Below are positions 1,422 through 29,932 of a DNA stretch of 29,932 bases, piece by piece; the first letter of the stretch is position 1; every line of letters begins with the position of its first letter. The position numbers and the translations under genes are program-made. The stretch is from a virus (lineage: Duplodnaviria; Heunggongvirae; Uroviricota; Caudoviricetes). The notes below the pieces were generated by a model. The model was not told the DNA's origin, did not search any database, and saw only the letters and a program-made list of their open reading frames with translations. The DNA lies in the IMG/VR virus record IMGVR_UViG_640753024_000007, positions 1-29,932 of that record. One strand, written 5' to 3'.

Positions 1422-3893
1422 TTAAAAATCAGCCTGACTCGGGATCAGTTTTTGCCAGATAACTGAAACGTATTTTGCCTGGTAACGGGCGTCATCAAGT
1501 GCATTATGGCGCTCACCTTCGAATGGAATAGCCGTTCTGGCATCGAAGTCTATGGCTTTCCCCAGCTCAACGATTGTGCGTACATCGCGATCGTTGTAGT
1601 AACGCCACGGGCAGGGGATCCCCTGCCGTTCGTATGAACGGCGCAAAATCGTGTTGTCGAAGTTGGCTCCATTTCCCCAGACCTGAACAAAAAATTCACC
1701 GGAGTTTTCGTCGATAAATTCCCGCAATTGTAACAGTGCATCATCTAACGGGATTTCATCGGTCATAATGGCAGATTGCGCTTCGCGTGATTGCTTAAGC
1801 CACCATTTAATGGTGTCCCGATCAATGACTCCGCCAGCAGTTTCCAGATCGATAGTCTTACTAAATTCCGGTCCCATATCTCCGGTTTGCGGATCGAAAA
1901 ATATTGCACCTATTGAGATGATCGGGGCATCAGGATTTTTTCCCATGGTTTCAAGGTCTATCATTAGATGGTCACACGTCCTGCTGGTGGATGTGATTAC
2001 GTGATGACCGTTCACCTTAATTGAGTGATCTGCCGTCTCGCCAGTTTCATTATCGCTATCGTGATGCTGATTGCCGCCAGTGTTCTCCTTGTGTGGATGT
2101 TCAGCGCCTTCCATTTCCTCCGGATCATCTTCCTGAACTTCAACCTGATACTCTTCATCGAATGTTTCCTGGTATGTTGCGTCGCCCATCACCGCGCCAC
2201 AATCAGGGCAATTGCCGCCGCCGGTCTGACCGCAGGCGGTGCAGACTTTTTCCACTTCCTGTTGCGCCACTGGTTCAGGCTGTTTCGTTTCTGGCTCGTT
2301 TTGTAACGCATTTGGGCTGTTTTGTTCCGCTTTTTGGTAGTTCCGTTCCGATTCATGCTGGTTCTGGTTTACAGAATCGCGGGTCTGGATCCCCTTAACC
2401 CATTTCGGATCATTCGGGTCGCTAATCCCTGCAACAAATTCTCCGCGAGAGGCAGCAAGCAACTTATCGGCGTCAGGCTGGCTGATATTGGCTGCCTGCA
2501 TAATTTTGTTTACTTCGTCAGCGGTAACTTTTACCGGCCCTGGTTGTGCGGTCGTGTCAGATGCACCAGTATTTTGTTGTGAACCTGAGTATGTACCGTT
2601 TTTGTGGGCGAAATATTCTTCTTTCGTGATTTCAGTAGCCCCGGCAGCCAGTGCCTTATCCAGACCAGAAAGTTTGTTTGCGCGACCGTATTTTTCGCCA
2701 TCCTTGTCGGTGAAGAGGAAGTAGAACGGCCCCTCACGCTCTACAGATGGTTCGACTTCCACTTTGCATTCGGTTTTTTCGTTGTCCGGAATTGCCGTTT
2801 CCACTGCATCAGTTTCTGGTACTGGCGACGAGAGAGTATCAGTTGCGCTCTGATTTCTTCCTTCATCTTCAAACACGCCCTTTGTAGTCAGGTATTCAGT
2901 AATGTATTTGTTCAGTGCCACAGGGTCTTTGTGAATGTCGATCGGACGTTCACGGACAAGGCCAAAAATAGTCTGGCGGTCGTAGCGAAGGGCATCAGGC
3001 TGTTTGCGCATTGATGCCGAGATACGCTTCCAGTCTTCGCGGTCGTTGTCGATAACTTCATTTTTTGCCCAGCGATGGATGCTGCCGTCAATGTTTCCGG
3101 CATCCACATCACCAGGCCAGAGAGCGTAGGCCAGTTCGTCATCCAGTGTTTTCCATGTCTGCTTGTATTCGCGATGAATGGCAGCAATGACCAGGCTGAT
3201 TTTTCCTGTTGAATTTTCAGTGTGCTGTTGATTGACTCTGGCGCGGGCGAGATCAACAACAGACGTGTATTTTCCGGTTTCCTTGCGTTCACCTTCGCGA
3301 CGTTTTTTCCAGATGCGCATCTCTGCCTGAATTTCGGGCCATTTGGCACCAGGCTTACATTTATGCTTAACCCACCCGATGGCATGCAGCTTAAGCTCCG
3401 GATACATGGCGTTAACATCTGGCATTTTCATCAACGCTTCAACGATATGTCCGTCGAATGTTGCCATGTCTTCCTGCAACAATTCCTGTGCGCTAATAAC
3501 CATATCAACGGTGATGTTTTCACATGTGTCGAACTTAACCATGACAGCGTTCTGTACTTCAGGGGCCAGCTTGTCAAAAGTGACGTTCATCGGATCGGCT
3601 TCAGTCTCAACCGGGACAAAGGAAGCAGACTCCTCATCCCAGCGGTTTTCCTGCATATATTCAGCATCCCAGGAATCGAGGGCAGGGCGGGGTATACCGG
3701 GTTTATCCTCGCAGACAAGAAATTTATAAGCGCAGTCCTGAGCAGCCGGATAATGTTCCAGGAATTGCCAGTGAAATTTTGCGCGGGCGCGACGTTCATC
3801 ACCGGCTTCAATGGCAGTGGCTACAGCGACGGCACCTTCTTCCTTTATTGCCTGTTCGTCCGGAATGGCGGCGCAAATAAAGACTTTACTCAT
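1422..3893 (-). CDS. Large prophage exonuclease with C-terminal DnaQ-like DEDDh 3'-5' exonuclease domain (family often annotated exodeoxyribonuclease VIII)
   Basis: 823-aa ORF; C-terminal motifs IDLETMG, WGNGANFD and HNALDDARY match DEDDh Exo I/II/III; internal CxxC-x-CxxC zinc ribbon (CTACGQTGGGNCPDCG) and an acidic low-complexity linker. Confidence 0.8.
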   Translation of the reverse strand: MSKVFICAAIPDEQAIKEEGAVAVATAIEAGDERRARAKFHWQFLEHYPAAQDCAYKFLVCEDKPGIPRPALDSWDAEYMQENRWDEESASFVPVETEADPMNVTFDKLAPEVQNAVMVKFDTCENITVDMVISAQELLQEDMATFDGHIVEALMKMPDVNAMYPELKLHAIGWVKHKCKPGAKWPEIQAEMRIWKKRREGERKETGKYTSVVDLARARVNQQHTENSTGKISLVIAAIHREYKQTWKTLDDELAYALWPGDVDAGNIDGSIHRWAKNEVIDNDREDWKRISASMRKQPDALRYDRQTIFGLVRERPIDIHKDPVALNKYITEYLTTKGVFEDEGRNQSATDTLSSPVPETDAVETAIPDNEKTECKVEVEPSVEREGPFYFLFTDKDGEKYGRANKLSGLDKALAAGATEITKEEYFAHKNGTYSGSQQNTGASDTTAQPGPVKVTADEVNKIMQAANISQPDADKLLAASRGEFVAGISDPNDPKWVKGIQTRDSVNQNQHESERNYQKAEQNSPNALQNEPETKQPEPVAQQEVEKVCTACGQTGGGNCPDCGAVMGDATYQETFDEEYQVEVQEDDPEEMEGAEHPHKENTGGNQHHDSDNETGETADHSIKVNGHHVITSTSRTCDHLMIDLETMGKNPDAPIISIGAIFFDPQTGDMGPEFSKTIDLETAGGVIDRDTIKWWLKQSREAQSAIMTDEIPLDDALLQLREFIDENSGEFFVQVWGNGANFDNTILRRSYERQGIPCPWRYYNDRDVRTIVELGKAIDFDARTAIPFEGERHNALDDARYQAKYVSVIWQKLIPSQADF

Positions 3894-3972
3894 TTTGTTT
3901 TACCTCATTACAGATTTAAGGGTGAACAAATCCCTGCCATTGCTGGCATATAAAAATGAAACTGGATATTAA

Positions 3973-4176
3973 TTACGGCGCTGTTTTTAATCCTGCCGGG
4001 ATTTCGTTATTGTCCATGTGAATAACTTTATCGACCGGATAACAGTTGCCGGGAATTTTCTGTTCCGCTGCGGCAGCCATGCATTCTTTCATTGAGTTGT
4101 ACATGCCGGTGATTGCATCAAGCGACTCACCAGTATTGAGATGTACAGTCAGAATGAGTACGAATAATGTGTTCAT
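3973..4176 (-). CDS. Small hypothetical protein with N-terminal hydrophobic (signal-like) segment
   Basis: GGAGA Shine-Dalgarno 6 nt before the ATG at 4176; ATGA overlap with the stop of the upstream DicB-like gene; hydrophobic N-terminus LFVLILTVHL. Confidence 0.5.
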   Translation of the reverse strand: MNTLFVLILTVHLNTGESLDAITGMYNSMKECMAAAAEQKIPGNCYPVDKVIHMDNNEIPAGLKTAP

Positions 4177-4361
4177 CGCCACTCTCCGAAAATACCGAGT
4201 TTAAGAAGGGCAATTCTGGAGAGTATGGAATTGTCATTCAGCAGGTAGGGTTCATATTTTCTCATATTGATTGCATCCTCGGTGAAATCCCTGTTACTGA
4301 GCAGAACACCAATATTAAAGCACCCGTCAGACGTATTAACGTTTGGTAGTGACGTTTCCAT
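4173..4361 (-). CDS. dicB: Cell division inhibitor DicB homolog
   Basis: 62-aa ORF METSLPNVNTSDGCFNIGVLLSNRDFTEDAIN... strongly resembles my recollection of E. coli DicB (62 aa, MKTLLPNVNTSEGCFEIGV...FTEDAIN); GAGGA RBS. Confidence 0.75.
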   Translation of the reverse strand: METSLPNVNTSDGCFNIGVLLSNRDFTEDAINMRKYEPYLLNDNSILSRIALLKLGIFGEWR

Positions 4362-4371
4362 TATCGCGTCC

Positions 4372-4929
4372 TCAACAATGAATTTTTAGCAATTGCTCCA
4401 CAGTCATATTTTTAATTGCGCTCCGGTTTACAAGAGTCCATCCTTGTTTCTCCAGATAAAAGCGGAAAGTATCCAGAGTACAGACGAGAGCGCCGTCAGG
4501 AACGGTTTCGGTGAATTTGATATTGCCGCGTTCGTCGAAGTGAACAACGAGAGTGCGACCATCACCAGGAATTATTTTGTCTGTGGTAGTGGTATTAAGC
4601 TGGTACAACTCTGCCTCCATGCGATCGAATTCAGCGATGTAGGCTTCCTTGAAAGCTGCGGCTTTTTTGCCCGTGAAGCCCATCACCAGGAAAACGAAGC
4701 CGTTTTTGGTGATTTGGTACATAGGGAGTTTGCGCCCGGTTGAGTCGGTGTATTCGCTCACCTTAAAATTAAGGGCAGTGAATTCAGGGGAGCAATCCAG
4801 TAATTTTATTTTTTGAATAACATTGTCGTGGCGTTTGCCAAAGAACTCGGCGATCGCAACAGACGTAGTGACAGCGCGACCATTTTCGATGGTTACGTCA
4901 GGTTGAGAAAGGGTAGGGATAGTAGCCAT
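4372..4929 (-). CDS. Rha-family phage regulatory protein (antirepressor-like)
   Basis: N-terminal signature GRAVTTSVAIAEFFGKRHDNVIQKIK typical of Rha; start chosen at the internal ATG (4929) with a GAGG RBS because the in-frame upstream extension to 5226 contains a terminator hairpin and conserved non-coding-looking elements. Confidence 0.75.
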   Translation of the reverse strand: MATIPTLSQPDVTIENGRAVTTSVAIAEFFGKRHDNVIQKIKLLDCSPEFTALNFKVSEYTDSTGRKLPMYQITKNGFVFLVMGFTGKKAAAFKEAYIAEFDRMEAELYQLNTTTTDKIIPGDGRTLVVHFDERGNIKFTETVPDGALVCTLDTFRFYLEKQGWTLVNRSAIKNMTVEQLLKIHC

Positions 4930-5070
4930 GATAGCAGCCTCGTTAGTGAATTTGATTAACTCACCACCAAGGTTTTCCACGACCATAAGGGTGGTGAGAC
5001 GTACAGGGGTGGAAATACCGGTCACTAACGAACCCGGCCAGCCTTGCGGCTGCCCTGCACGTCCCACCAT

Positions 5071-5098
5071 AATCTGAATGTGGCTGTGCATTACGCAT
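5071..5098 (-). terminator. Putative intrinsic terminator in the leader upstream of rha
   Basis: On the minus strand: ACCGC-gctcag-GCGGT followed by TTTTTTT. Confidence 0.45.
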
Positions 5099-5446
5099 AA
5101 AAAAACCGCCTGAGCGCGGTTATGCGCGTTAGTGAACATCGGGTTTCCACGCCCGGCACCCGTTTTATGAGGTGCAGGTGCACTATAATTCCACCCGTTC
5201 TGGTTTTCAATAGCTACATTCAACATTTTCTCTACCTTTCATCACCTAAGTGAACTTTGTGATGCGGTGCCTGGTGCCTCCAGGTGACGTTAACCAGTTA
5301 ACAATTAACGCCGGATGATTCACCCATAACACTTGTGTTTTTAACTGTTCTGCGTGCGCTGAGCCGCATTCACCGCATCACGAAATTCACTTTTTACTTC
5401 ATAGACCGTGATATGATTTAGCTTTCCACAGTAAAAAGGAGTGTTT

Positions 5447-5710
5447 ATGTCCCATATACATAGTCGTGAACACATGAATGATGGTGACCTTGTCAGGGTT
5501 CAATGTTCACACCAGATTAATGTTTTATTAATGGATGATTCAAATTACCAGGCTTTCAAGCGGGGCGGGCGTTTTACCTATTACGGCGGTTTCTATGAAC
5601 GATTCCCTGCCAATATTACCGTGCCCCACTCGGGTTACTGGAATGTTGTATTAGCACTCCCTCCCGGTCATCGAGCCAATATCAGATACTCCATTAACGT
5701 TATCAGATAG
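5447..5710 (+). CDS. Hypothetical protein
   Basis: AAAGGA RBS 6 nt before ATG 5447; 87-aa ORF with no recognisable motifs. Confidence 0.5.
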   Translation: MSHIHSREHMNDGDLVRVQCSHQINVLLMDDSNYQAFKRGGRFTYYGGFYERFPANITVPHSGYWNVVLALPPGHRANIRYSINVIR

Positions 5711-5872
5711 CAGAATTTGGCTTGTCGCCTGAGTTAATGCACTTGCAAGGGCGGTAATGATTTTTTGTTGAGTACCGTCCTTTATACAAGTCATATTCAT
5801 TATGTGTTTCTGGCTGACGGTATCGTATGACCAGAGCAGCTTATTATTCCCGTCTGTGCATTGAACTATCAT
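5651..5872 (-). CDS. Hypothetical protein (73 aa)
   Basis: Strong GGAGGA RBS 3 nt before the internal ATG at 5872; converges on and overlaps the 3' end of the 5447..5710 gene by 60 nt. Confidence 0.45.
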   Translation of the reverse strand: MIVQCTDGNNKLLWSYDTVSQKHIMNMTCIKDGTQQKIITALASALTQATSQILLSDNVNGVSDIGSMTGREC

Positions 5873-6232
5873 TTTTCCTCCGGTTAGACCCCATATATCT
5901 ATAGCAGTATGAGTTATGGCGGGGTTGTCACTTAAGCGTATGGTCAACCTGACAACCCGGTGTCCTCAACGGGGGAAGGAATAACCCCGCCATACTTACC
6001 GCCGCGCCATTTCGCGGAGTGCCACAACCGGAAGCGCACGGTCGAAGAAATTAACGACAAGCCTCATAGGTGAAGGCCTTCGCCGTACGCTTTCGTGTTA
6101 TGCCCTGACTTTTCAGGGAAATATCCTTTCAGTAAACTGTCAGTGCCGGATTCTTATCCGTGTCCGGCGCACGACCACACGTAGCCCCGTATTGGTCTCC
6201 ATTTCTAACCCAGAACCTAAATGGAGGATAAA

Positions 6233-6517
6233 ATGGCAAAATTTACAGTCAGGATCGAACTTCGCGATTCCAGTTCCGCTGATTACGATAAGCTTCATGA
6301 ACGAATGGAAGCAAAGGGATTCTCCAGAACGATTACAACCTCTTTAGGGAACACCTACCGTCTTCCTAATGCCGAATATATATATTCAAGCAAGAATGAA
6401 GACAAAGAATCTGTTGCTGACCTTGCTGAATCAGTGGCCTCAAAAGTTAAGAAAAATCCCGGTGTTCTTGTTACCGAATCTAATGGGCGCTATGTAAAAA
6501 ACTTAGATGATGCTTAA
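6233..6517 (+). CDS. Hypothetical protein (94 aa)
   Basis: GGAGGA RBS 4 nt before ATG 6233; charged, Lys/Glu-rich soluble protein. Confidence 0.6.
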   Translation: MAKFTVRIELRDSSSADYDKLHERMEAKGFSRTITTSLGNTYRLPNAEYIYSSKNEDKESVADLAESVASKVKKNPGVLVTESNGRYVKNLDDA

Positions 6518-6660
6518 CCTTCATCATCACGACCTGACTCAATAGCGTACAATGCCAGCCAGATGCGGGCTTCAGTGCCTGCATTTGGTTCCAGTTGCTG
6601 GAGGCGTTTTGCATCCTCCAGAAGCAGAGCGATAACGTGTTTTAATTCTGTTTCGTTCAT
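6514..6660 (-). CDS. Small hypothetical protein (48 aa)
   Basis: ATG one nt downstream of the stop of the 6662..6817 gene (translational coupling); lies just below the ORF-track length cut-off. Confidence 0.35.
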   Translation of the reverse strand: MNETELKHVIALLLEDAKRLQQLEPNAGTEARIWLALYAIESGRDDEG

Positions 6661-6661
6661 T

Positions 6662-6817
6662 TTATTCACCTGAATGTCTTACCAACCAACGACGCGCGCC
6701 AGATTCGGTTTTAAACGTTTTGCTTTTGGTATACGTCATCGCGGTGAACGTTCCGTCCTGGTTGGGAAACACACCGCACACCAGAGATTCGTTGTTGCCA
6801 AGATCGATAGTTTCCAT
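6662..6817 (-). CDS. Small hypothetical protein (51 aa; alternative start 6910 gives 82 aa)
   Basis: Internal ATG at 6817 has a GAGG RBS whereas the upstream ATG at 6910 has none; first gene downstream of the dicA-proximal operator-like palindrome, the position held by ydfA in Qin as I recall it. Confidence 0.45.
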   Translation of the reverse strand: METIDLGNNESLVCGVFPNQDGTFTAMTYTKSKTFKTESGARRWLVRHSGE

Positions 6818-6931
6818 GTTGACCTCATTTCCCCTTAACGCTGGGGTGGCGGAACTGTTTGCTGAGAACACCGTGCGGTGTCTTGATGGGTGGTAATTTA
6901 GTTTTCTCATGAATGTTGGTCAAGTGTTTTT

Positions 6932-6947
6932 AATGAGAAAACTCAAT
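6932..6947. promoter_or_regulatory. Operator-like palindrome TGAGaaaaCTCA (second copy)
   Basis: Shares the core TGAG-AAAA-CTCA with the palindrome in the dicA/dicC divergent region; sits just downstream of dicA at the head of the minus-strand small-gene operon. Confidence 0.45.
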
Positions 6948-7007
6948 ATTTAATGCAAAATAAAGCCAATACATTGAAATGTAAGGCTTTAAAATTTGTG
7001 AAGGGGG

Positions 7008-7415
7008 TTACTGATGTTTGTTACGTTTGCGAGCTTCTAGTAGCTCGGTGAATAGGCGATTAAAATTCTCAACGCGGGCACGGAGTTCGCTGATTTGTGC
7101 TTGCTGCTCTGATTTTGGAAGTGCGCGATACAATCGCAACATCTCCAACTCATCTTCCGATAAGTCTAAGGCGCTGTTGAGTGCAACTGGTGGATCTGGT
7201 GTTTTATCCTCGTCACCAAACAGTATCCAAGTTGGTGAACATTGCAATACCTCAGCCAGGCGATGCAAATTTTGCCCACGCGGGGCTGTATGGTCGCTTT
7301 CCCATAGTGAAATTGATGAGCCAGATACGCCAGCGGCTTTGCTTAAATCGTTTTGACTTAAACCAACCTGTTTGCGTCTTTCTCTAATTCGTTGACCTAA
7401 AGTTTTCTCGTTCAT
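7008..7415 (-). CDS. dicA: HTH XRE-family repressor, DicA-like (cI functional analog)
   Basis: 135-aa ORF; the segment LQCSPTWILFGDEDK and the C-terminal ELRARVENFNRLFTELLEARKRN closely match my recollection of E. coli DicA. Confidence 0.85.
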   Translation of the reverse strand: MNEKTLGQRIRERRKQVGLSQNDLSKAAGVSGSSISLWESDHTAPRGQNLHRLAEVLQCSPTWILFGDEDKTPDPPVALNSALDLSEDELEMLRLYRALPKSEQQAQISELRARVENFNRLFTELLEARKRNKHQ

Positions 7416-7464
7416 ATTTAGATATCTTAATAACCCTTGACTTGAGATTCCTTGAGTGATTACT

Positions 7465-7480
7465 ATTGAGAAAACTCAAT
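7465..7480. promoter_or_regulatory. Operator-like palindrome ATTGAGaaaaCTCAAT in the dicA/dicC divergent promoter region
   Basis: Perfect 6-bp arms with a 4-bp spacer, between divergent repressor and Cro-like genes. Confidence 0.5.
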
Positions 7481-7492
7481 TTTGGAGGGGTG

Positions 7493-7720
7493 ATGTTTAA
7501 ATCAGACGTAATTAATTTTTATGGGACGAAAGCCAAAGTAGCGAAAGCTGCTGGTGTTGATCCATCTGCTGTTTCTCAATGGGGGGAACTGGTTCCTGAA
7601 GGTCGCGCGATGCGCCTGCAAGAGGCATCCGGCGGGGAACTTCAGTACGACCCCAAAGTTTATGACGAATATCGTAAGGCAAAGCGGGCGGGGCGGTTGA
7701 ACAATGAAAATCACCCCTGA
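7493..7720 (+). CDS. Cro/DicC/YdaS-like small regulator
   Basis: Divergent from the dicA-like gene; GGAGGGG RBS before ATG 7493; 75 aa. Confidence 0.7.
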   Translation: MFKSDVINFYGTKAKVAKAAGVDPSAVSQWGELVPEGRAMRLQEASGGELQYDPKVYDEYRKAKRAGRLNNENHP

Positions 7721-12554: not shown

Positions 12555-12980
12555 GAAAAGTCCTTTTGAACATATAGGAATATACTAGAACATAAATAGA
12601 TGCAATGCATAAAGGAAAAGCTACCGCAGGGCGCACTCACCCACCGATAGCTCTTAACTGCTTGTTTGTAAAAGATAATACATAAATTTGGGTCTGTGTA
12701 AAGAGGTAAGCATCGTCAGGGCAAGGGAGATGTGTTAGGCAATATTGGTAAAATTTACGTTGAGGATAAAAACGGTTTGCGGGAAAAGGAGAGTTAAGTA
12801 GAATTGCTGCGGGTGCTTGAGGCTATCTGTCTCAGGCATGAACACCAAAAGGCAGATAGAGAAAAGCCCCAGTTAACATTACGCGTCCTGCAAGACGCTT
12901 AACATTAATCTGAGGCCCAATCTATGTCTCACAAATGTAGGTTAGCCTCTTACGTGCCGAAAGGCAAGGAGAAGCAGGCT

Positions 12981-13136
12981 ATGAAGCAGCAAAAGGCGAT
13001 GTTAATCGCCCTGATCGTCATCTGTTTAACCGTCATAGTGACGGCACTGGTAACGAGGAAAGACCTCTGCGAGGTACGAATCCGAACCGGCCAGACGGAG
13101 GTCGCTGTCTTCGCAGCTTACGAACCTGAGGAGTAA
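12981..13136 (+). CDS. hokD: Hok/Gef-family type I toxin
   Basis: MKQQKAMLIALIVICLTVIVTALVTRKDLCEVRIRTGQTEVAVFAAYEPEE matches the Hok family and the HokD/RelF sequence as I recall it; AGGAGA RBS; an in-frame upstream extension from 12924 occupies the mok position. Confidence 0.85.
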   Translation: MKQQKAMLIALIVICLTVIVTALVTRKDLCEVRIRTGQTEVAVFAAYEPEE

Positions 13137-13352: not shown

Positions 13353-13604
13353 ATGATGAACATCGAAGAACTGCGTAAAATTTTTTGTGAAGATGGCCTC
13401 TATGCTGTGTGCGTTGAAAATGGAAATATTGTTAGTCATTACCGCATTGTGTGTTTGCGAAAGAATGGGGCTGCGTTAATTAATTTTGTGGATGGTCGAG
13501 TGACAGACGGATTTATCTTGCGCGAAGGTGAGTTTGTCACTTCATTACAGGCACTGAAAGAGATCGGAATAAAAGCTGGCTTTTCTGCTTTTTCAGAAGA
13601 ATAA
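13353..13604 (+). CDS. Hypothetical protein (83 aa; size and position recall Qin rem)
   Basis: GGAAGGA RBS; lies between hok and the DUF968 gene. Confidence 0.5.
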   Translation: MMNIEELRKIFCEDGLYAVCVENGNIVSHYRIVCLRKNGAALINFVDGRVTDGFILREGEFVTSLQALKEIGIKAGFSAFSEE

Positions 13605-19487: not shown

Positions 19488-19563
<76 letters not shown>

Positions 19564-19566
19564 TAT

Positions 19567-19641
<75 letters not shown>

Positions 19642-29188: not shown

Positions 29189-29371
29189 TGACGTCCTCTA
29201 GTGGTTTCTAAACTTAAACTATCACCACCGTCAGGTTCCAATCATCGGGTGGTGAGACGCACAGGGTTGGAACTACCGGGAAACCGACCGACGAGCTTTT
29301 CAGCTCCCCCATGCGCCCCACAATAATTCATATGTGCGCGTGCATACGAGAAAAAACACTTGTTATATCTG

Positions 29372-29932
29372 CTAAAGCTGCATCAGCCTTTCCACCAGTT
29401 GTTCTTTACGGGCAACGAGCCAGCCGTGTTGCTCCAGATAAAATTTAAACCGTTCCAGAGTGCATACCATCGCATCGGCGGGGACTTTTTCTGTGAACTC
29501 TACCTGACCGTGTTTATCAAAGTGGATCAGTAATGCGCATCCATCATTTGGGGTGGGTGAGTTTTGTGTTGCTGGTGGTTGTTTTTGGCTGAAATAACAG
29601 TCTTCCAGTTTTTCGAACACTTCCCATGCCTGATCGGTTTCGAGCATTTTGGCATGGCGGGCTGCGCCACGTTCTGTCCAGAGGATAAGGGAACGGGCAT
29701 TTTTACCAACTAACCCGATTGTTTCAGGTCTGTTCTTAAACTCGCGTAATTCGTTTTTTTCAATTTTAAAGTAATGCTTTCCTACCACGAATCGCGTCGT
29801 GTTGTTCCGAAAGTTATCAGAAATGTTTTTGATTTTTGTTCCGTATAACTGCGCCAGAAGTTCAGTTGTAATAACGGGGACCTGGTTGTGGGTGATTGCA
29901 GGAAGAGTGTCGACAGAAATTTGAGTGGGCAT
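29372..29932 (-). CDS. Phage antirepressor (AntA/KilA-N-type N-terminal domain; C-terminal domain shared with the Rha protein at 4372..4929)
   Basis: 186-aa ORF whose ATG is the last codon in the window (true start could lie beyond it); C-terminal FTEKVPADAMVCTLERFKFYLEQHGW parallels the Rha C-terminus FTETVPDGALVCTLDTFRFYLEKQGW. Confidence 0.7.
   Translation of the reverse strand: MPTQISVDTLPAITHNQVPVITTELLAQLYGTKIKNISDNFRNNTTRFVVGKHYFKIEKNELREFKNRPETIGLVGKNARSLILWTERGAARHAKMLETDQAWEVFEKLEDCYFSQKQPPATQNSPTPNDGCALLIHFDKHGQVEFTEKVPADAMVCTLERFKFYLEQHGWLVARKEQLVERLMQL

What the first reader, a model, noticed from the sequence alone, without database searches (positions are those of the whole stretch)
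4173..4361. DicB-like division inhibitor retained; no DicF-like sRNA recognised upstream
The 62-aa protein closely matches DicB as I recall it. In Qin, dicB is preceded by the DicF sRNA in a DicA-repressed operon; here a Rha antirepressor gene and its structured leader occupy that upstream position. DicB has been reported to confer resistance to some phages through effects on the mannose transporter, so this gene may contribute to host defence as well as division control.
Basis: partly seen in the sequence, partly recalled or inferred. Interest (0 to 1): 0.4.

Follow-up and report, generated by a model that had tools for sequence, protein, structure and literature searches.

The report
DicB kept, DicF swapped out
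This E. coli prophage keeps the small cell-division inhibitor DicB but has lost its partner small RNA DicF, because an 80-base slot holding DicF was replaced by a rare two-gene insert; this is an ordinary gene in an uncommon arrangement.

Summary
Window 4173-4361 (-) encodes a full-length 62-aa DicB: Pfam 111.7 bits, NCBIfam above its cutoff, 64% identical to K-12 DicB. It is followed by a ydfD homologue with the same ATGA overlap as in Qin. No DicF is present in the window, while Rfam found DicF in K-12 Qin and three relatives run as controls.

The isrK-C4-rha module does not sit in the DicF position. It is a separate 864-bp insertion between the dicF-dicB spacer and the dicB ribosome-binding site, and it coexists with DicF in many relatives.

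DicF is missing because its 80-bp slot, between a conserved leader and spacer, was replaced by a 525-bp cassette (5394-5918). The cassette carries a DUF1883 gene antisense to the operon and a small sense-strand ORF (orf73). It occurs in 7 of 5426 complete E. coli genomes.

DicB most likely still acts through MinC. It is probably transcribed from a DicA-controlled promoter, and possibly also by read-through from the isrK promoter; both routes are inferred.

Verdict: known protein family in a rare operon variant. Interest is low to moderate.

The parts
4173..4361 (-). dicB coding sequence (62 aa plus stop)
   Evidence: Pfam DicB 111.7 bits. NCBIfam 103.4 bits against a cutoff of 100. 64% identical to K-12 DicB. 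The identical allele occurs in 27 IMG/VR loci.
3973..4176 (-). ydfD-like gene (DUF1482, 67 aa); its ATG overlaps the dicB stop codon (ATGA), as in Qin
   Evidence: Pfam DUF1482 E=2e-19. 67% identical to K-12 YdfD. The overlap is visible in the sequence.
4372..4929 (-). rha-type antirepressor gene. The likely start is ATG 4929, with the Shine-Dalgarno (SD) sequence GAGG at 4941-4938. The RefSeq 284-aa ORF starting at 5226 is probably over-extended across the RNA genes.
   Evidence: Pfam Phage_pRha E=4.8e-31. TIGR02681 118.8 bits. PHROG antirepressor and regulator families. Start-codon context.
4987..5074 (-). C4 antisense RNA gene. Its loops are complementary to 4949-4940 and 4980-4974 (b2/a2, at the rha ribosome-binding site) and to 5135-5127 and 5150-5144 (b1/a1, inside isrK).
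   Evidence: Rfam RF01695 80.3 bits against a gathering score of 45. Complementary 7-10-mers found by script.
4961..5098 (-). 45-codon ORF overlapping C4, the positional equivalent of Gifsy-1 orf45
   Evidence: ORF list. Comparison with the isrK-orf45-anrP locus described in PMC4825925.
5099..5175 (-). isrK-type sRNA/leader with an intrinsic terminator (stem 5121-5104 plus U run)
   Evidence: Rfam RF01394 65.9 bits against a gathering score of 50. Terminator scan.
5182..5210 (-). sigma-70-like promoter (TTGAAA-17-TATAGT, 10 of 12 matches) placed 7 nt upstream of the isrK 5' end: the candidate PisrK
   Evidence: Promoter scan. Position relative to the Rfam isrK match. Function is inferred.
5251..5393 (-). 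conserved dicF-dicB spacer, a long hairpin with arms 5248-5269 and 5371-5392. RefSeq mislabels part of it (5252-5332) as a partial DicB pseudogene.
   Evidence: 87.5% identical to Qin 4441-4592. Inverted repeat. Sub-threshold STnc100 hit of 33.8 bits. Its translation has no DicB similarity.
5394..5918 (.). 525-bp cassette that replaces the 80-bp DicF slot
   Evidence: Homology to Qin, L003, L004 and L005 stops at about 5919 and resumes at 5393. Slot lengths are 80, 61 or 525 nt. The cassette is present in 7 of 5426 complete E. coli genomes.
5447..5710 (+). DUF1883 small-protein gene (87 aa), antisense to the operon
   Evidence: Pfam DUF1883 E=1.1e-24. phrog_9211. PDB 2b1y E=4e-6. AAGGAG ribosome-binding site before the ATG.
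5651..5872 (-). orf73, a small ORF in the operon sense direction. It is convergent with the DUF1883 gene and overlaps its 3' end by 60 nt. It has a GGAGG ribosome-binding site.
   Evidence: phrog_21096 E=1.4e-14. 378 homologues at E<=0.001, mostly 59 aa. Paired with DUF1883 in 75 of 80 IMG/VR loci.
5919..6173 (-). conserved structured leader that in Qin lies 5' of DicF and holds the RNase III processing site
   Evidence: 89% identical to Qin 4103-4360. RNase III processing described in PMC10448788. The site position in the window is inferred.
6233..6517 (+). GhoS/YmfI-like gene on the opposite strand, in the place of ydfC
   Evidence: Pfam GhoS 19.8 bits, below the cutoff of 21. NCBIfam YmfI 51 bits, below the cutoff of 140. 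No similarity to Qin 3669-4102.
6514..6817 (-). ydfA-like (6662-6817, DUF1391) and ydfB-like (6514-6669) first genes of the operon
   Evidence: Pfam DUF1391 E=2.4e-28. 91% DNA identity to Qin 3438-3668. PHROG hits.
6895..6923 (-). promoter-like site (TTGACC-17-TAAATT) at the position equivalent to Qin dicBp
   Evidence: Promoter scan. Homology with Qin starts about 5 nt after the dicBp start site deduced from PMC10448788. Inferred.
7008..7415 (-). dicA-type repressor gene (135 aa)
   Evidence: NCBIfam DicA 238.3 bits against a cutoff of 101. 56% identical to K-12 DicA.
7493..7720 (+). dicC/cro-type regulator gene, divergent from dicA
   Evidence: RefSeq annotation of the 99.9% identical locus. 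ORF list.
13353..13604 (+). rem-like antirepressor gene (83 aa), the candidate inducer of the DicA-controlled promoter
   Evidence: ORF. RefSeq names the corresponding DS26-1 gene rem. Rem's role in Qin is described in PMC10448788.

Best explanation
Window 4173-4361 (-) is a genuine dicB gene. It lies in the early-left (PL-type) operon of a complete-looking lambdoid prophage integrated next to ompW.

By homology with K-12 DicB, the 62-aa product binds MinC. The DicB-MinC complex is drawn to the septal ring through ZipA and depolymerises FtsZ rings, which produces filaments. The same complex inhibits the ManYZ mannose transporter and so blocks DNA entry by lambda-like phages.

The operon is a mosaic variant of the Qin dicBF operon, with three changes:
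1. The 80-bp slot that normally holds DicF and its terminator was replaced by a 525-bp two-gene cassette. The cassette carries a DUF1883 gene antisense to the operon and orf73 in the sense direction. No DicF can therefore be made from this prophage.
2. An 864-bp isrK-orf45/C4-rha antirepressor module was inserted between the dicF-dicB spacer and the dicB ribosome-binding site.
3. ydfC was replaced by a GhoS/YmfI-like gene on the opposite strand.

Inferred, not shown: dicB is transcribed from the dicBp-like promoter upstream of ydfA, under the DicA-like repressor (with Rem as the likely inducer). No terminator separates rha from dicB, and the gap between them is 10 nt. Dicb is therefore probably also transcribed by read-through from the isrK promoter. 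The isrK terminator now sits where the DicF terminator used to attenuate transcription into dicB.
For: Identity:
- Pfam and NCBIfam DicB scores are above their cutoffs.
- The protein is 64% identical to K-12 DicB.
- 32 columns are invariant across 8 alleles, including the motif LPNVNTS.GCF.IG.
- A ydfD homologue follows with the same ATGA overlap.
- DicA-, DicC- and Rem-type regulators are present.

Loss of DicF: with positive controls.

Replacement:
- The breakpoints are the same against four comparators.
- The slot is 80 nt with DicF, 61 nt in a short variant, or 525 nt with the cassette.
- The same cassette with the same boundaries occurs in a K-12-type dicB background that lacks the Rha module (L087).
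- The cassette is in 7 of 5426 E. coli genomes. About 4650 genomes match the flanks, and the sampled rows show the canonical roughly 490-bp spacing of leader-DicF-spacer.

The Rha module is independent of DicF: the two coexist in L005 and in 25 of 80 IMG/VR loci. The rha-dicB junction is found in at least 258 genomes.

Riboregulator logic: C4 scores 80.3 bits and isrK 65.9 bits. The C4 loops are complementary to the rha ribosome-binding region and to isrK. A promoter and a terminator are predicted. Read-through from PisrK into the downstream genes was shown in Gifsy-1 (PMC4825925).

Mechanism and dispensability of DicF for phage resistance: PMC6832061 and PMC10448788.
Against: No expression or phenotype data exist for this allele. 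Its C-terminal third differs from K-12 DicB: the whole-length identity is 58%, and the BLASTP alignment stops at residue 55. The residues that contact MinC are not known to me, so MinC binding is inferred from family membership only.

Two opposite-strand genes now lie between the dicBp-like promoter and dicB, and the isrK terminator lies there too. Transcription from that promoter may not reach dicB. The promoter and terminator calls are consensus matches, found at about the frequency seen in shuffled sequence.

The IMG/VR and genome counts include many near-identical prophages and are descriptive only.
Confidence: 0.8

Rival explanations
1. dicB has effectively become part of the antirepressor module. 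It would be expressed mainly from the isrK promoter by terminator read-through, independently of DicA. It would be co-regulated with rha by the IsrK/C4 riboregulator, a layout analogous to the phage P1 immI operon (c4, icd, ant), where a division inhibitor and an antirepressor share one C4-controlled transcript.
For: - A 10-of-12 promoter match lies 7 nt before isrK, and no terminator lies between isrK and dicB other than the leaky isrK terminator.
- The rha-dicB gap is 10 nt, and dicB keeps its own GAGGA ribosome-binding site.
- In Gifsy-1, PisrK drives transcription through the terminator into the downstream genes.
- The C4 target sites are complete.
- The arrangement is maintained in at least 258 genomes.
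- The P1 ImmI gene content is listed in PMC6906374. The division-inhibitor role of Icd comes from my own knowledge of the P1 literature.
Against: The same dicB allele occurs without any Rha module, directly after the spacer (L006, L015, L030). Dependence on PisrK is therefore not a property of the gene. In P1 the inhibitor lies before ant, not after it. Constitutive read-through would risk toxic DicB levels. No expression data exist.
Confidence: 0.3
2. dicB here is a silent passenger. The two opposite-strand insertions and the isrK terminator insulate it from the early promoter, and it contributes nothing to the lysogen or the phage.
For: Three interruptions lie between the dicBp-like promoter and dicB. 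The dicBF operon is already tightly repressed in K-12 (PMC10448788).
Against: The ORF, its ribosome-binding site and the overlap with ydfD are intact. The identical protein allele is kept in 27 IMG/VR loci with different upstream architectures. The downstream exonuclease, xis and int genes lie on the same strand and need the same transcription.
Confidence: 0.1
3. The cassette is a functional substitute for DicF. The DUF1883 protein and orf73 would together perturb cell division through the Min system, like the C. difficile pair MrpB (87 aa, DUF1883) and MrpA.
For: - The window protein is 87 aa and is DUF1883 over its whole length.
- It is almost always paired with one small partner ORF: 75 of 80 loci.
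- MrpA and MrpB together cause elongation and aberrant septa, and MrpA binds MinD (bioRxiv 10.1101/2025.08.20.671228).
- The cassette sits in the slot of a division-inhibiting sRNA, next to a MinC-binding protein.
Against: The link is at domain level only. DUF1883 is also a common partner of bacterial TIR domains (PMC9153377). The pair here is convergent, not co-transcribed. In other phages the same pair sits among tail genes or next to a repressor, with no division genes nearby. The orf73 model has a three-strand plus helix fold at pLDDT 66, with no informative structural match.
Confidence: 0.08
4. One reading: the Rha gene and its leader took the place of DicF.
For: The Rha module is the nearest upstream neighbour of dicB.
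Against: DicF and the module coexist, in the order DicF, spacer, isrK, C4, rha, dicB, in L005 and in 25 IMG/VR loci. The module is inserted downstream of the conserved spacer. The DicF slot is elsewhere and is filled by the cassette.
Confidence: 0.02
5. A diverged, unrecognised DicF-like sRNA is still encoded in the operon.
For: In 20 of 80 related loci the slot holds a 61-nt variant that keeps the DicF 5' end but escapes the Rfam model. Model-negative variants therefore exist.
Against: In the window the slot has no residue of either form. The 525 bp are filled by two coding sequences with protein homologues. No DicF hit appears even at E<=10.
Confidence: 0.03

Closest known systems
[quoted passage not shown]
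   Same: The gene order and strand logic are the same: a DicA-type repressor, then ydfA, ydfB, the structured leader, the spacer, dicB and an overlapping ydfD. DNA identity is 88-91% in ydfA, the leader and the spacer, and 74-75% across dicB-ydfD. Rem and hokD/sok are also present.
   Different: - DicF and its terminator are absent, replaced by a 525-bp cassette.
- ydfC is replaced by an opposite-strand GhoS/YmfI-like gene.
- An isrK-C4-rha module is inserted before dicB.
- The DicB allele is 58-64% identical, with a different C-terminal third.
- The prophage has intact int, xis and morphogenesis genes rather than being cryptic.
PPompW prophages of EHEC (for example PPompW_EH2246, LC567836)
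   Same: Same integration site next to ompW, same int-xis-exonuclease-ydfD-dicB order, and DicB 85.5% identical.
   Different: PPompW keeps a canonical DicF (76.7 bits) about 175 nt before dicB and has no Rha module.
Gifsy-1 isrK-orf45-anrP locus of Salmonella
   Same: An isrK-type RNA with a leaky terminator, a 45-codon ORF overlapping a C4-like RNA, then an antirepressor gene.
   Different: In the window, the orf45 stop codon is 32 nt before the rha start rather than overlapping it. The module is embedded in a dicB operon and is followed by dicB, not isrJ.
Phage P1/P7 immI operon (c4, icd, ant1/2)
   Same: A C4 antisense RNA with two loop sequences complementary to an upstream site pair and to a downstream pair at the ribosome-binding site. 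An antirepressor and a small division inhibitor lie on the same transcript.
   Different: The division inhibitor here is DicB, which is unrelated to Icd, and it lies after the antirepressor rather than before it. Co-regulation is inferred only.
C. difficile MrpA/MrpB
   Same: A stand-alone 87-aa DUF1883 protein paired with a second small protein.
   Different: The genes here are convergent and overlapping rather than co-transcribed. Homology of the partner is untested. No phenotype is known for the enterobacterial pair.

Membership tests
DicB (Pfam PF05358, NCBIfam NF049927) | Full-length match to the family profile above the curated cutoff | tested here: met
   Pfam 111.7 bits against a cutoff of 27, profile positions 1-60 of 62. 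NCBIfam 103.4 bits against a cutoff of 100.
DicB (Pfam PF05358, NCBIfam NF049927) | Size of about 62 aa with the conserved N-terminal core shared with K-12 DicB | tested here: met
   62 aa. 35 of 55 residues identical to K-12 DicB. 32 invariant columns in 8 alleles.
DicB (Pfam PF05358, NCBIfam NF049927) | Location in a DicA-controlled early operon, followed by an overlapping ydfD | tested here: met
   The DicA-family repressor, ydfA, the leader, the spacer and ydfD are collinear with Qin. Control by DicA itself is inferred.
DicB (Pfam PF05358, NCBIfam NF049927) | MinC- and ZipA-dependent inhibition of FtsZ ring formation | not testable with these tools
   Needs expression in wild-type and minC E156A hosts (design as in PMC6832061).
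DicB (Pfam PF05358, NCBIfam NF049927) | MinC-dependent inhibition of ManYZ (phage DNA entry, mannose use) | not testable with these tools
   Shown only for the K-12 allele.
DicF sRNA (Rfam RF00039) | Covariance-model score at or above 48 bits | tested here: not met
   No hit at the gathering threshold in the whole window or at E<=10 in 3800-7600. Controls scored 61-77 bits.
DicF sRNA (Rfam RF00039) | Occupies the 80-nt slot between the conserved leader and the spacer upstream of dicB | tested here: not met
   The slot holds a 525-bp unrelated cassette.
C4 / isrK antirepressor riboregulator (Rfam RF01695, RF01394; P1 immI type) | Matches to both RNA models above their gathering scores, in the order isrK then C4 | tested here: met
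   C4 80.3 bits against 45; isrK 65.9 bits against 50.
C4 / isrK antirepressor riboregulator (Rfam RF01695, RF01394; P1 immI type) | C4 loop sequences complementary to an upstream site pair and to a downstream pair at the ribosome-binding site of the regulated gene | tested here: met
   The 10-nt b' sequence pairs with 4949-4940 (abutting the ribosome-binding site), and 9 nt of it with 5135-5127. The 7-nt a' sequence pairs with 4980-4974 and 5150-5144.
C4 / isrK antirepressor riboregulator (Rfam RF01695, RF01394; P1 immI type) | A downstream antirepressor gene | tested here: met
   Rha domain plus PHROG antirepressor families.
C4 / isrK antirepressor riboregulator (Rfam RF01695, RF01394; P1 immI type) | Translational silencing or activation of the downstream gene by the RNAs | not testable with these tools
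   Shown in Gifsy-1 only.
MrpAB-like division modulators (considered, not adopted) | A stand-alone DUF1883 small protein | tested here: met
   Pfam DUF1883 E=1.1e-24 over residues 5-89 of the 89-aa GTG-start ORF; the RefSeq ATG-start protein is 87 aa.
MrpAB-like division modulators (considered, not adopted) | A partner protein homologous to MrpA | not tested
MrpAB-like division modulators (considered, not adopted) | The two genes are co-transcribed | tested here: not met
   The genes are convergent and overlap at their 3' ends in the window and in nearly all related loci.

The most novel reading that the evidence does not exclude
The DicF slot of dicB operons may be an exchange site for cargo that acts on cell division. 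In this prophage the division-inhibiting sRNA would have been swapped for a two-protein module (DUF1883 protein plus orf73). Like C. difficile MrpAB, that module would act on the Min system, alongside the MinC-binding DicB. Separately, dicB may have been placed under the IsrK/C4 antirepressor riboregulator, giving expression that does not depend on DicA.
Probability: 0.08. Interest if true: 0.6.

Novelty: new variant of a known kind. Interest (0 to 1): 0.27.

Why it matters
DicB and DicF are usually discussed as a conserved pair, and published surveys started from dicF-positive loci (PMC5069750).

This locus is a natural, cleanly bounded dicF replacement that keeps dicB. The survey of close relatives shows the slot is variable: 56 of 80 loci carry DicF, 20 carry a short form that the Rfam model does not detect, 3 lack it, and 1 carries the cassette. 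Natural alleles therefore exist for asking what DicF adds to DicB.

The survey also shows that about a third of close relatives, and at least 258 complete E. coli genomes, have an IsrK/C4-controlled antirepressor gene spliced directly in front of dicB. My literature searches found no description of this possible second regulatory input.

None of this changes what DicB is. The practical value is better annotation and a set of testable regulatory hypotheses.

Tried and rejected
1. AgvB. The 61-nt short slot variant in L003 gave a weak AgvB hit (15.2 bits against a gathering score of 56, E=1.9). AgvB lies between the late promoter and the lysis genes, not here (PMC7873438). I treated the hit as chance.

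2. Hidden ftsZ-pairing RNA. I scanned the operon with RNAduplex against the ftsZ leader. K-12 DicF itself (-38.5 kcal/mol) is not an outlier among arbitrary 53-mers in either locus. The test does not discriminate and was dropped.

3. RefSeq 'partial DicB pseudogene' at 5252-5332. Its translation (VLWVNHPALIVNWLTSPGGTRHRITKF) has no DicB similarity. It is the conserved spacer, probably matched to over-extended database entries (compare phrog_24763).

4. STnc100 (33.8 bits against 47) and c4-a1b1 (24.7 bits against 46.7) are sub-threshold. I noted them but did not use them as family assignments.

5. Defence annotation. PADLOC gave no hit for DicB, YdfD, Rha, orf73, DUF1883 or the GhoS-like protein.

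7. DicB structure. No solved relative exists.

8. Cassette in cultured phages. There is no DNA match in INPHARED and only 3 distant protein matches.

9. Mobile-element signature. No terminal direct or inverted repeats flank the cassette.
Full report
**Source of the window.** The window is part of a lambdoid prophage integrated beside ompW. Positions 3900-7500 are 99.9% identical to E. coli DS26-1 (NZ_CP035879). That record carries an IS1 near hokD which the window seems to lack, so the source is probably a close relative rather than DS26-1 itself. The prophage looks complete. It has int, xis, an 823-aa exonuclease, replication genes, Q, lysis genes, terminase, portal and capsid genes.

**Checking the observation.** The minus-strand ORF 4173-4361 has 62 codons plus a stop codon.
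- It matches Pfam DicB end to end (E=1.3e-32, 111.7 bits).
- It passes the NCBIfam DicB cutoff (103.4 against 100 bits).
- It is 64% identical to K-12 DicB over 55 residues (E=1e-22).
- Its GAGGA ribosome-binding site and the sequence around the start codon are the same as in Qin.
- The next gene, a DUF1482 protein 67% identical to K-12 YdfD, starts inside the dicB stop codon (ATGA), as in Qin.

An alignment of eight alleles shows two allelic groups that share 32 invariant columns. Most of these lie in the N-terminal two-thirds. The window belongs to the non-K-12 group. The identical protein is present in 27 of the IMG/VR loci retrieved.

**No DicF.**
- Rfam at gathering thresholds finds sok, two C4 RNAs, isrK and two tRNAs in the window, but no DicF.
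- A permissive scan of 3800-7600 at E<=10 adds only sub-threshold or chance hits.
- The K-12 dicF sequence has no match with up to three mismatches, or by short-word blastn.
- The same tool detects DicF at 76.7 bits in Qin, 71.5 bits in relative L005, 61-77 bits in IMG/VR loci, and 76.7 bits in phage PPompW_EH2246, which uses the same ompW site.

**Why DicF is absent.** I compared Qin with the window by blastn and repeated this with three E. coli relatives. The result is a collinear map, with Qin positions given in L002 coordinates:

| Qin segment | Qin coordinates | Window coordinates | Identity |
|---|---|---|---|
| ydfA region | 3438-3668 | 6888-6658 | 91% |
| Structured leader 5' of dicF | 4103-4360 | 6173-5919 | 89% |
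| dicF-dicB spacer | 4441-4592 | 5393-5251 | 87.5% |
| dicB-ydfD | 4585-5070 | 4386-3902 | 74% |

Homology to every comparator stops at about 5919 and resumes at 5393. In loci with DicF, the sequence between these two anchors is 80 nt: 22 nt, the 53-nt DicF, and its T tail. In the window and in L012 it is 525 nt.

The 525 bp contain two genes:
- a DUF1883 gene on the plus strand (5447-5710), with an AAGGAG ribosome-binding site;
- a sense-strand ORF of 73 codons (5872-5651), with a GGAGG ribosome-binding site. It converges on the DUF1883 gene and overlaps it by 60 nt.

No trace of DicF or its terminator remains.

**How rare the cassette is.** It occurs in 7 of 5426 complete E. coli genomes, once each, and in 6 of them with the same flanks. 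About 4650 genomes match the flanks, and the sampled rows show the canonical roughly 490-bp spacing of leader, DicF and spacer. The cassette has no DNA match in 50,697 deposited phage genomes. The same cassette with the same boundaries also occurs in front of a K-12-type dicB that has no Rha module (L087). This points to a single origin, spread by recombination through the conserved flanks (inference).

**The Rha module is a separate event.** Window 5250-4387 is inserted between the spacer and the dicB ribosome-binding site. An 8-nt near-repeat, AAA(A/G)TTCA, lies at both junctions. In order, the insertion contains:
1. a promoter-like site at 5210-5182;
2. an isrK-type RNA with an intrinsic terminator;
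3. a 45-codon ORF overlapping a C4 antisense RNA;
4. a Rha-domain antirepressor gene.

The two unpaired C4 sequences are complementary to one site pair inside isrK and to a second pair directly before and touching the rha Shine-Dalgarno sequence. This is the P1 immI design. It matches the Gifsy-1 isrK-orf45-anrP locus, where PisrK transcription reads through the isrK terminator into a translationally silent mRNA (PMC4825925).

In L005 and in 25 of 80 IMG/VR loci this module sits downstream of an intact DicF. It therefore did not displace DicF. The rha-dicB junction is present in at least 258 complete genomes. The RefSeq 284-aa Rha ORF runs across both RNA genes and is probably over-extended.

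**Survey of the slot.** I examined 80 IMG/VR loci whose DicB is 87-100% identical to the window's.

| Slot content | Loci (of 80) |
|---|---|
| DicF | 56 |
| 61-nt short variant | 20 |
| No leader and no DicF | 3 |
| DUF1883 cassette | 1 |

The short variant joins the first 10 nt of DicF directly to a terminator hairpin. Rfam does not detect it even at E<=10. These loci include many near-identical prophages, so the counts are descriptive only. They show that dicB without a recognisable DicF is not exceptional, whereas this particular replacement is rare.

**How it most likely works.**

Shown by sequence:
- a DicB-family protein;
- DicA-, DicC- and Rem-type regulators;
- a promoter-like site where Qin has dicBp;
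- no terminator between rha and dicB.

From the literature on the K-12 protein:
- DicB binds MinC. The complex is targeted to the ring via ZipA and removes FtsZ rings.
- The same interaction inhibits ManYZ and blocks lambda-type DNA entry.
- Deleting dicF barely changes this resistance (PMC6832061).
- dicBp is repressed by DicA and derepressed by Rem. In Qin, part of the transcription ends at the DicF terminator (PMC10448788).

Inferred for this locus:
- DicB keeps these activities.
- It is transcribed from the DicA-controlled promoter on induction, and possibly at a low level from PisrK.
- The isrK terminator now sits where the DicF terminator used to attenuate transcription.
- The antisense DUF1883 and GhoS-like genes may reduce read-through.

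**What the cassette might be.** DUF1883 homologues in 80 IMG/VR loci (52-100% identity) are accompanied by an orf73 homologue in 75 cases, always in the same convergent position. Most of these loci are not dicB operons. Examples include a position right after a DicA-like repressor (L090) and a position between tail genes in a Klebsiella phage. The pair therefore behaves as a mobile two-gene 'moron', an accessory cassette carried inside a phage operon.

The orf73 family usually has 59 residues and is common in Klebsiella, Raoultella and Providencia. NCBI labels it 'Rrf2 family regulator', which is implausible for a protein of that size. Its predicted fold is three strands and a helix at modest confidence, with no informative structural match.

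The only studied stand-alone DUF1883 protein I found is C. difficile MrpB. Together with MrpA it disturbs division, and MrpA binds MinD. That is a suggestive parallel for a cassette sitting in the DicF slot. However, it rests on a shared domain that is also common in TIR proteins, so I rate it as unlikely.

**Verdict.** The ORF is a member of a known family that RefSeq already annotates as DicB. The absence of DicF is real and has a precise explanation. The locus is a rare variant of a known operon type. Interest is low to moderate.

Noticed in passing
window 5447-5710 (+) and 5651-5872 (-); loci L086-L165: The DUF1883 gene and a small ORF (usually 59 aa) form a convergent gene pair with overlapping 3' ends. 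The pair is conserved as a unit in 75 of 80 viral contigs, across 52-100% DUF1883 identity, and sits in varied phage contexts: a dicB operon, next to a repressor, or among tail genes. Its function is unknown and PADLOC gives no hit.
   Followed up: partly
L003 3014-3070; L035, L036, L037, L044, L053, L054 near 4762-4822: A 61-nt short slot variant (TTTTCTGGTGATTCGGCGGAAA(C/T)GGATATCCGCCCTTTTT) occurs in 20 of 80 dicB loci. It joins the first 10 nt of DicF directly to a terminator hairpin and lacks the inner 26 nt. Rfam DicF does not detect it even at E<=10. It may be a distinct mini-sRNA that keeps only the DicF 5' seed.
   Followed up: partly
window 4372-5226 (-): The 284-aa 'Rha family' ORF annotated in RefSeq, and its Pfam Phage_ASH match, span the isrK and C4 RNA genes. 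The protein most likely starts at ATG 4929 (or 4986). The Ash-like 'domain' may be a translation of conserved RNA genes.
   Followed up: partly
window 5252-5332 (-): RefSeq calls this a partial DicB pseudogene. It is the conserved dicF-dicB spacer, and its translation shows no DicB similarity. The spacer forms a long hairpin (arms 5248-5269 and 5371-5392) and gives a sub-threshold STnc100 hit.
   Followed up: partly
window 6233-6517 (+): A GhoS/YmfI-like gene on the opposite strand replaces ydfC. RefSeq names it a type V antitoxin GhoS, but it scores below both the Pfam and the NCBIfam cutoffs, and no GhoT-like partner is visible.
   Followed up: no
window 29245-29328 (-): A second C4 antisense RNA (58.4 bits) lies near the end of the window, next to an ORF that runs off the window end (29372-29932, -). 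This suggests a second C4-controlled module in the late region.
   Followed up: no
window 12811-13136 and 13353-13604: A sok RNA (120 bits) with a hokD-like ORF, and a Rem-like antirepressor ORF, as in Qin. The DS26-1 record has an IS1 in this neighbourhood that the window appears to lack.
   Followed up: partly
window 19488-19638 (+): Two adjacent tRNA genes lie in the late regulatory region. They are annotated tRNA-Thr and tRNA-Gly in DS26-1.
   Followed up: no
L062, L074, L080: In three dicB loci, ydfA is followed almost directly by the spacer and dicB, with neither the leader nor DicF. This is a third route to a dicF-less operon.
   Followed up: no
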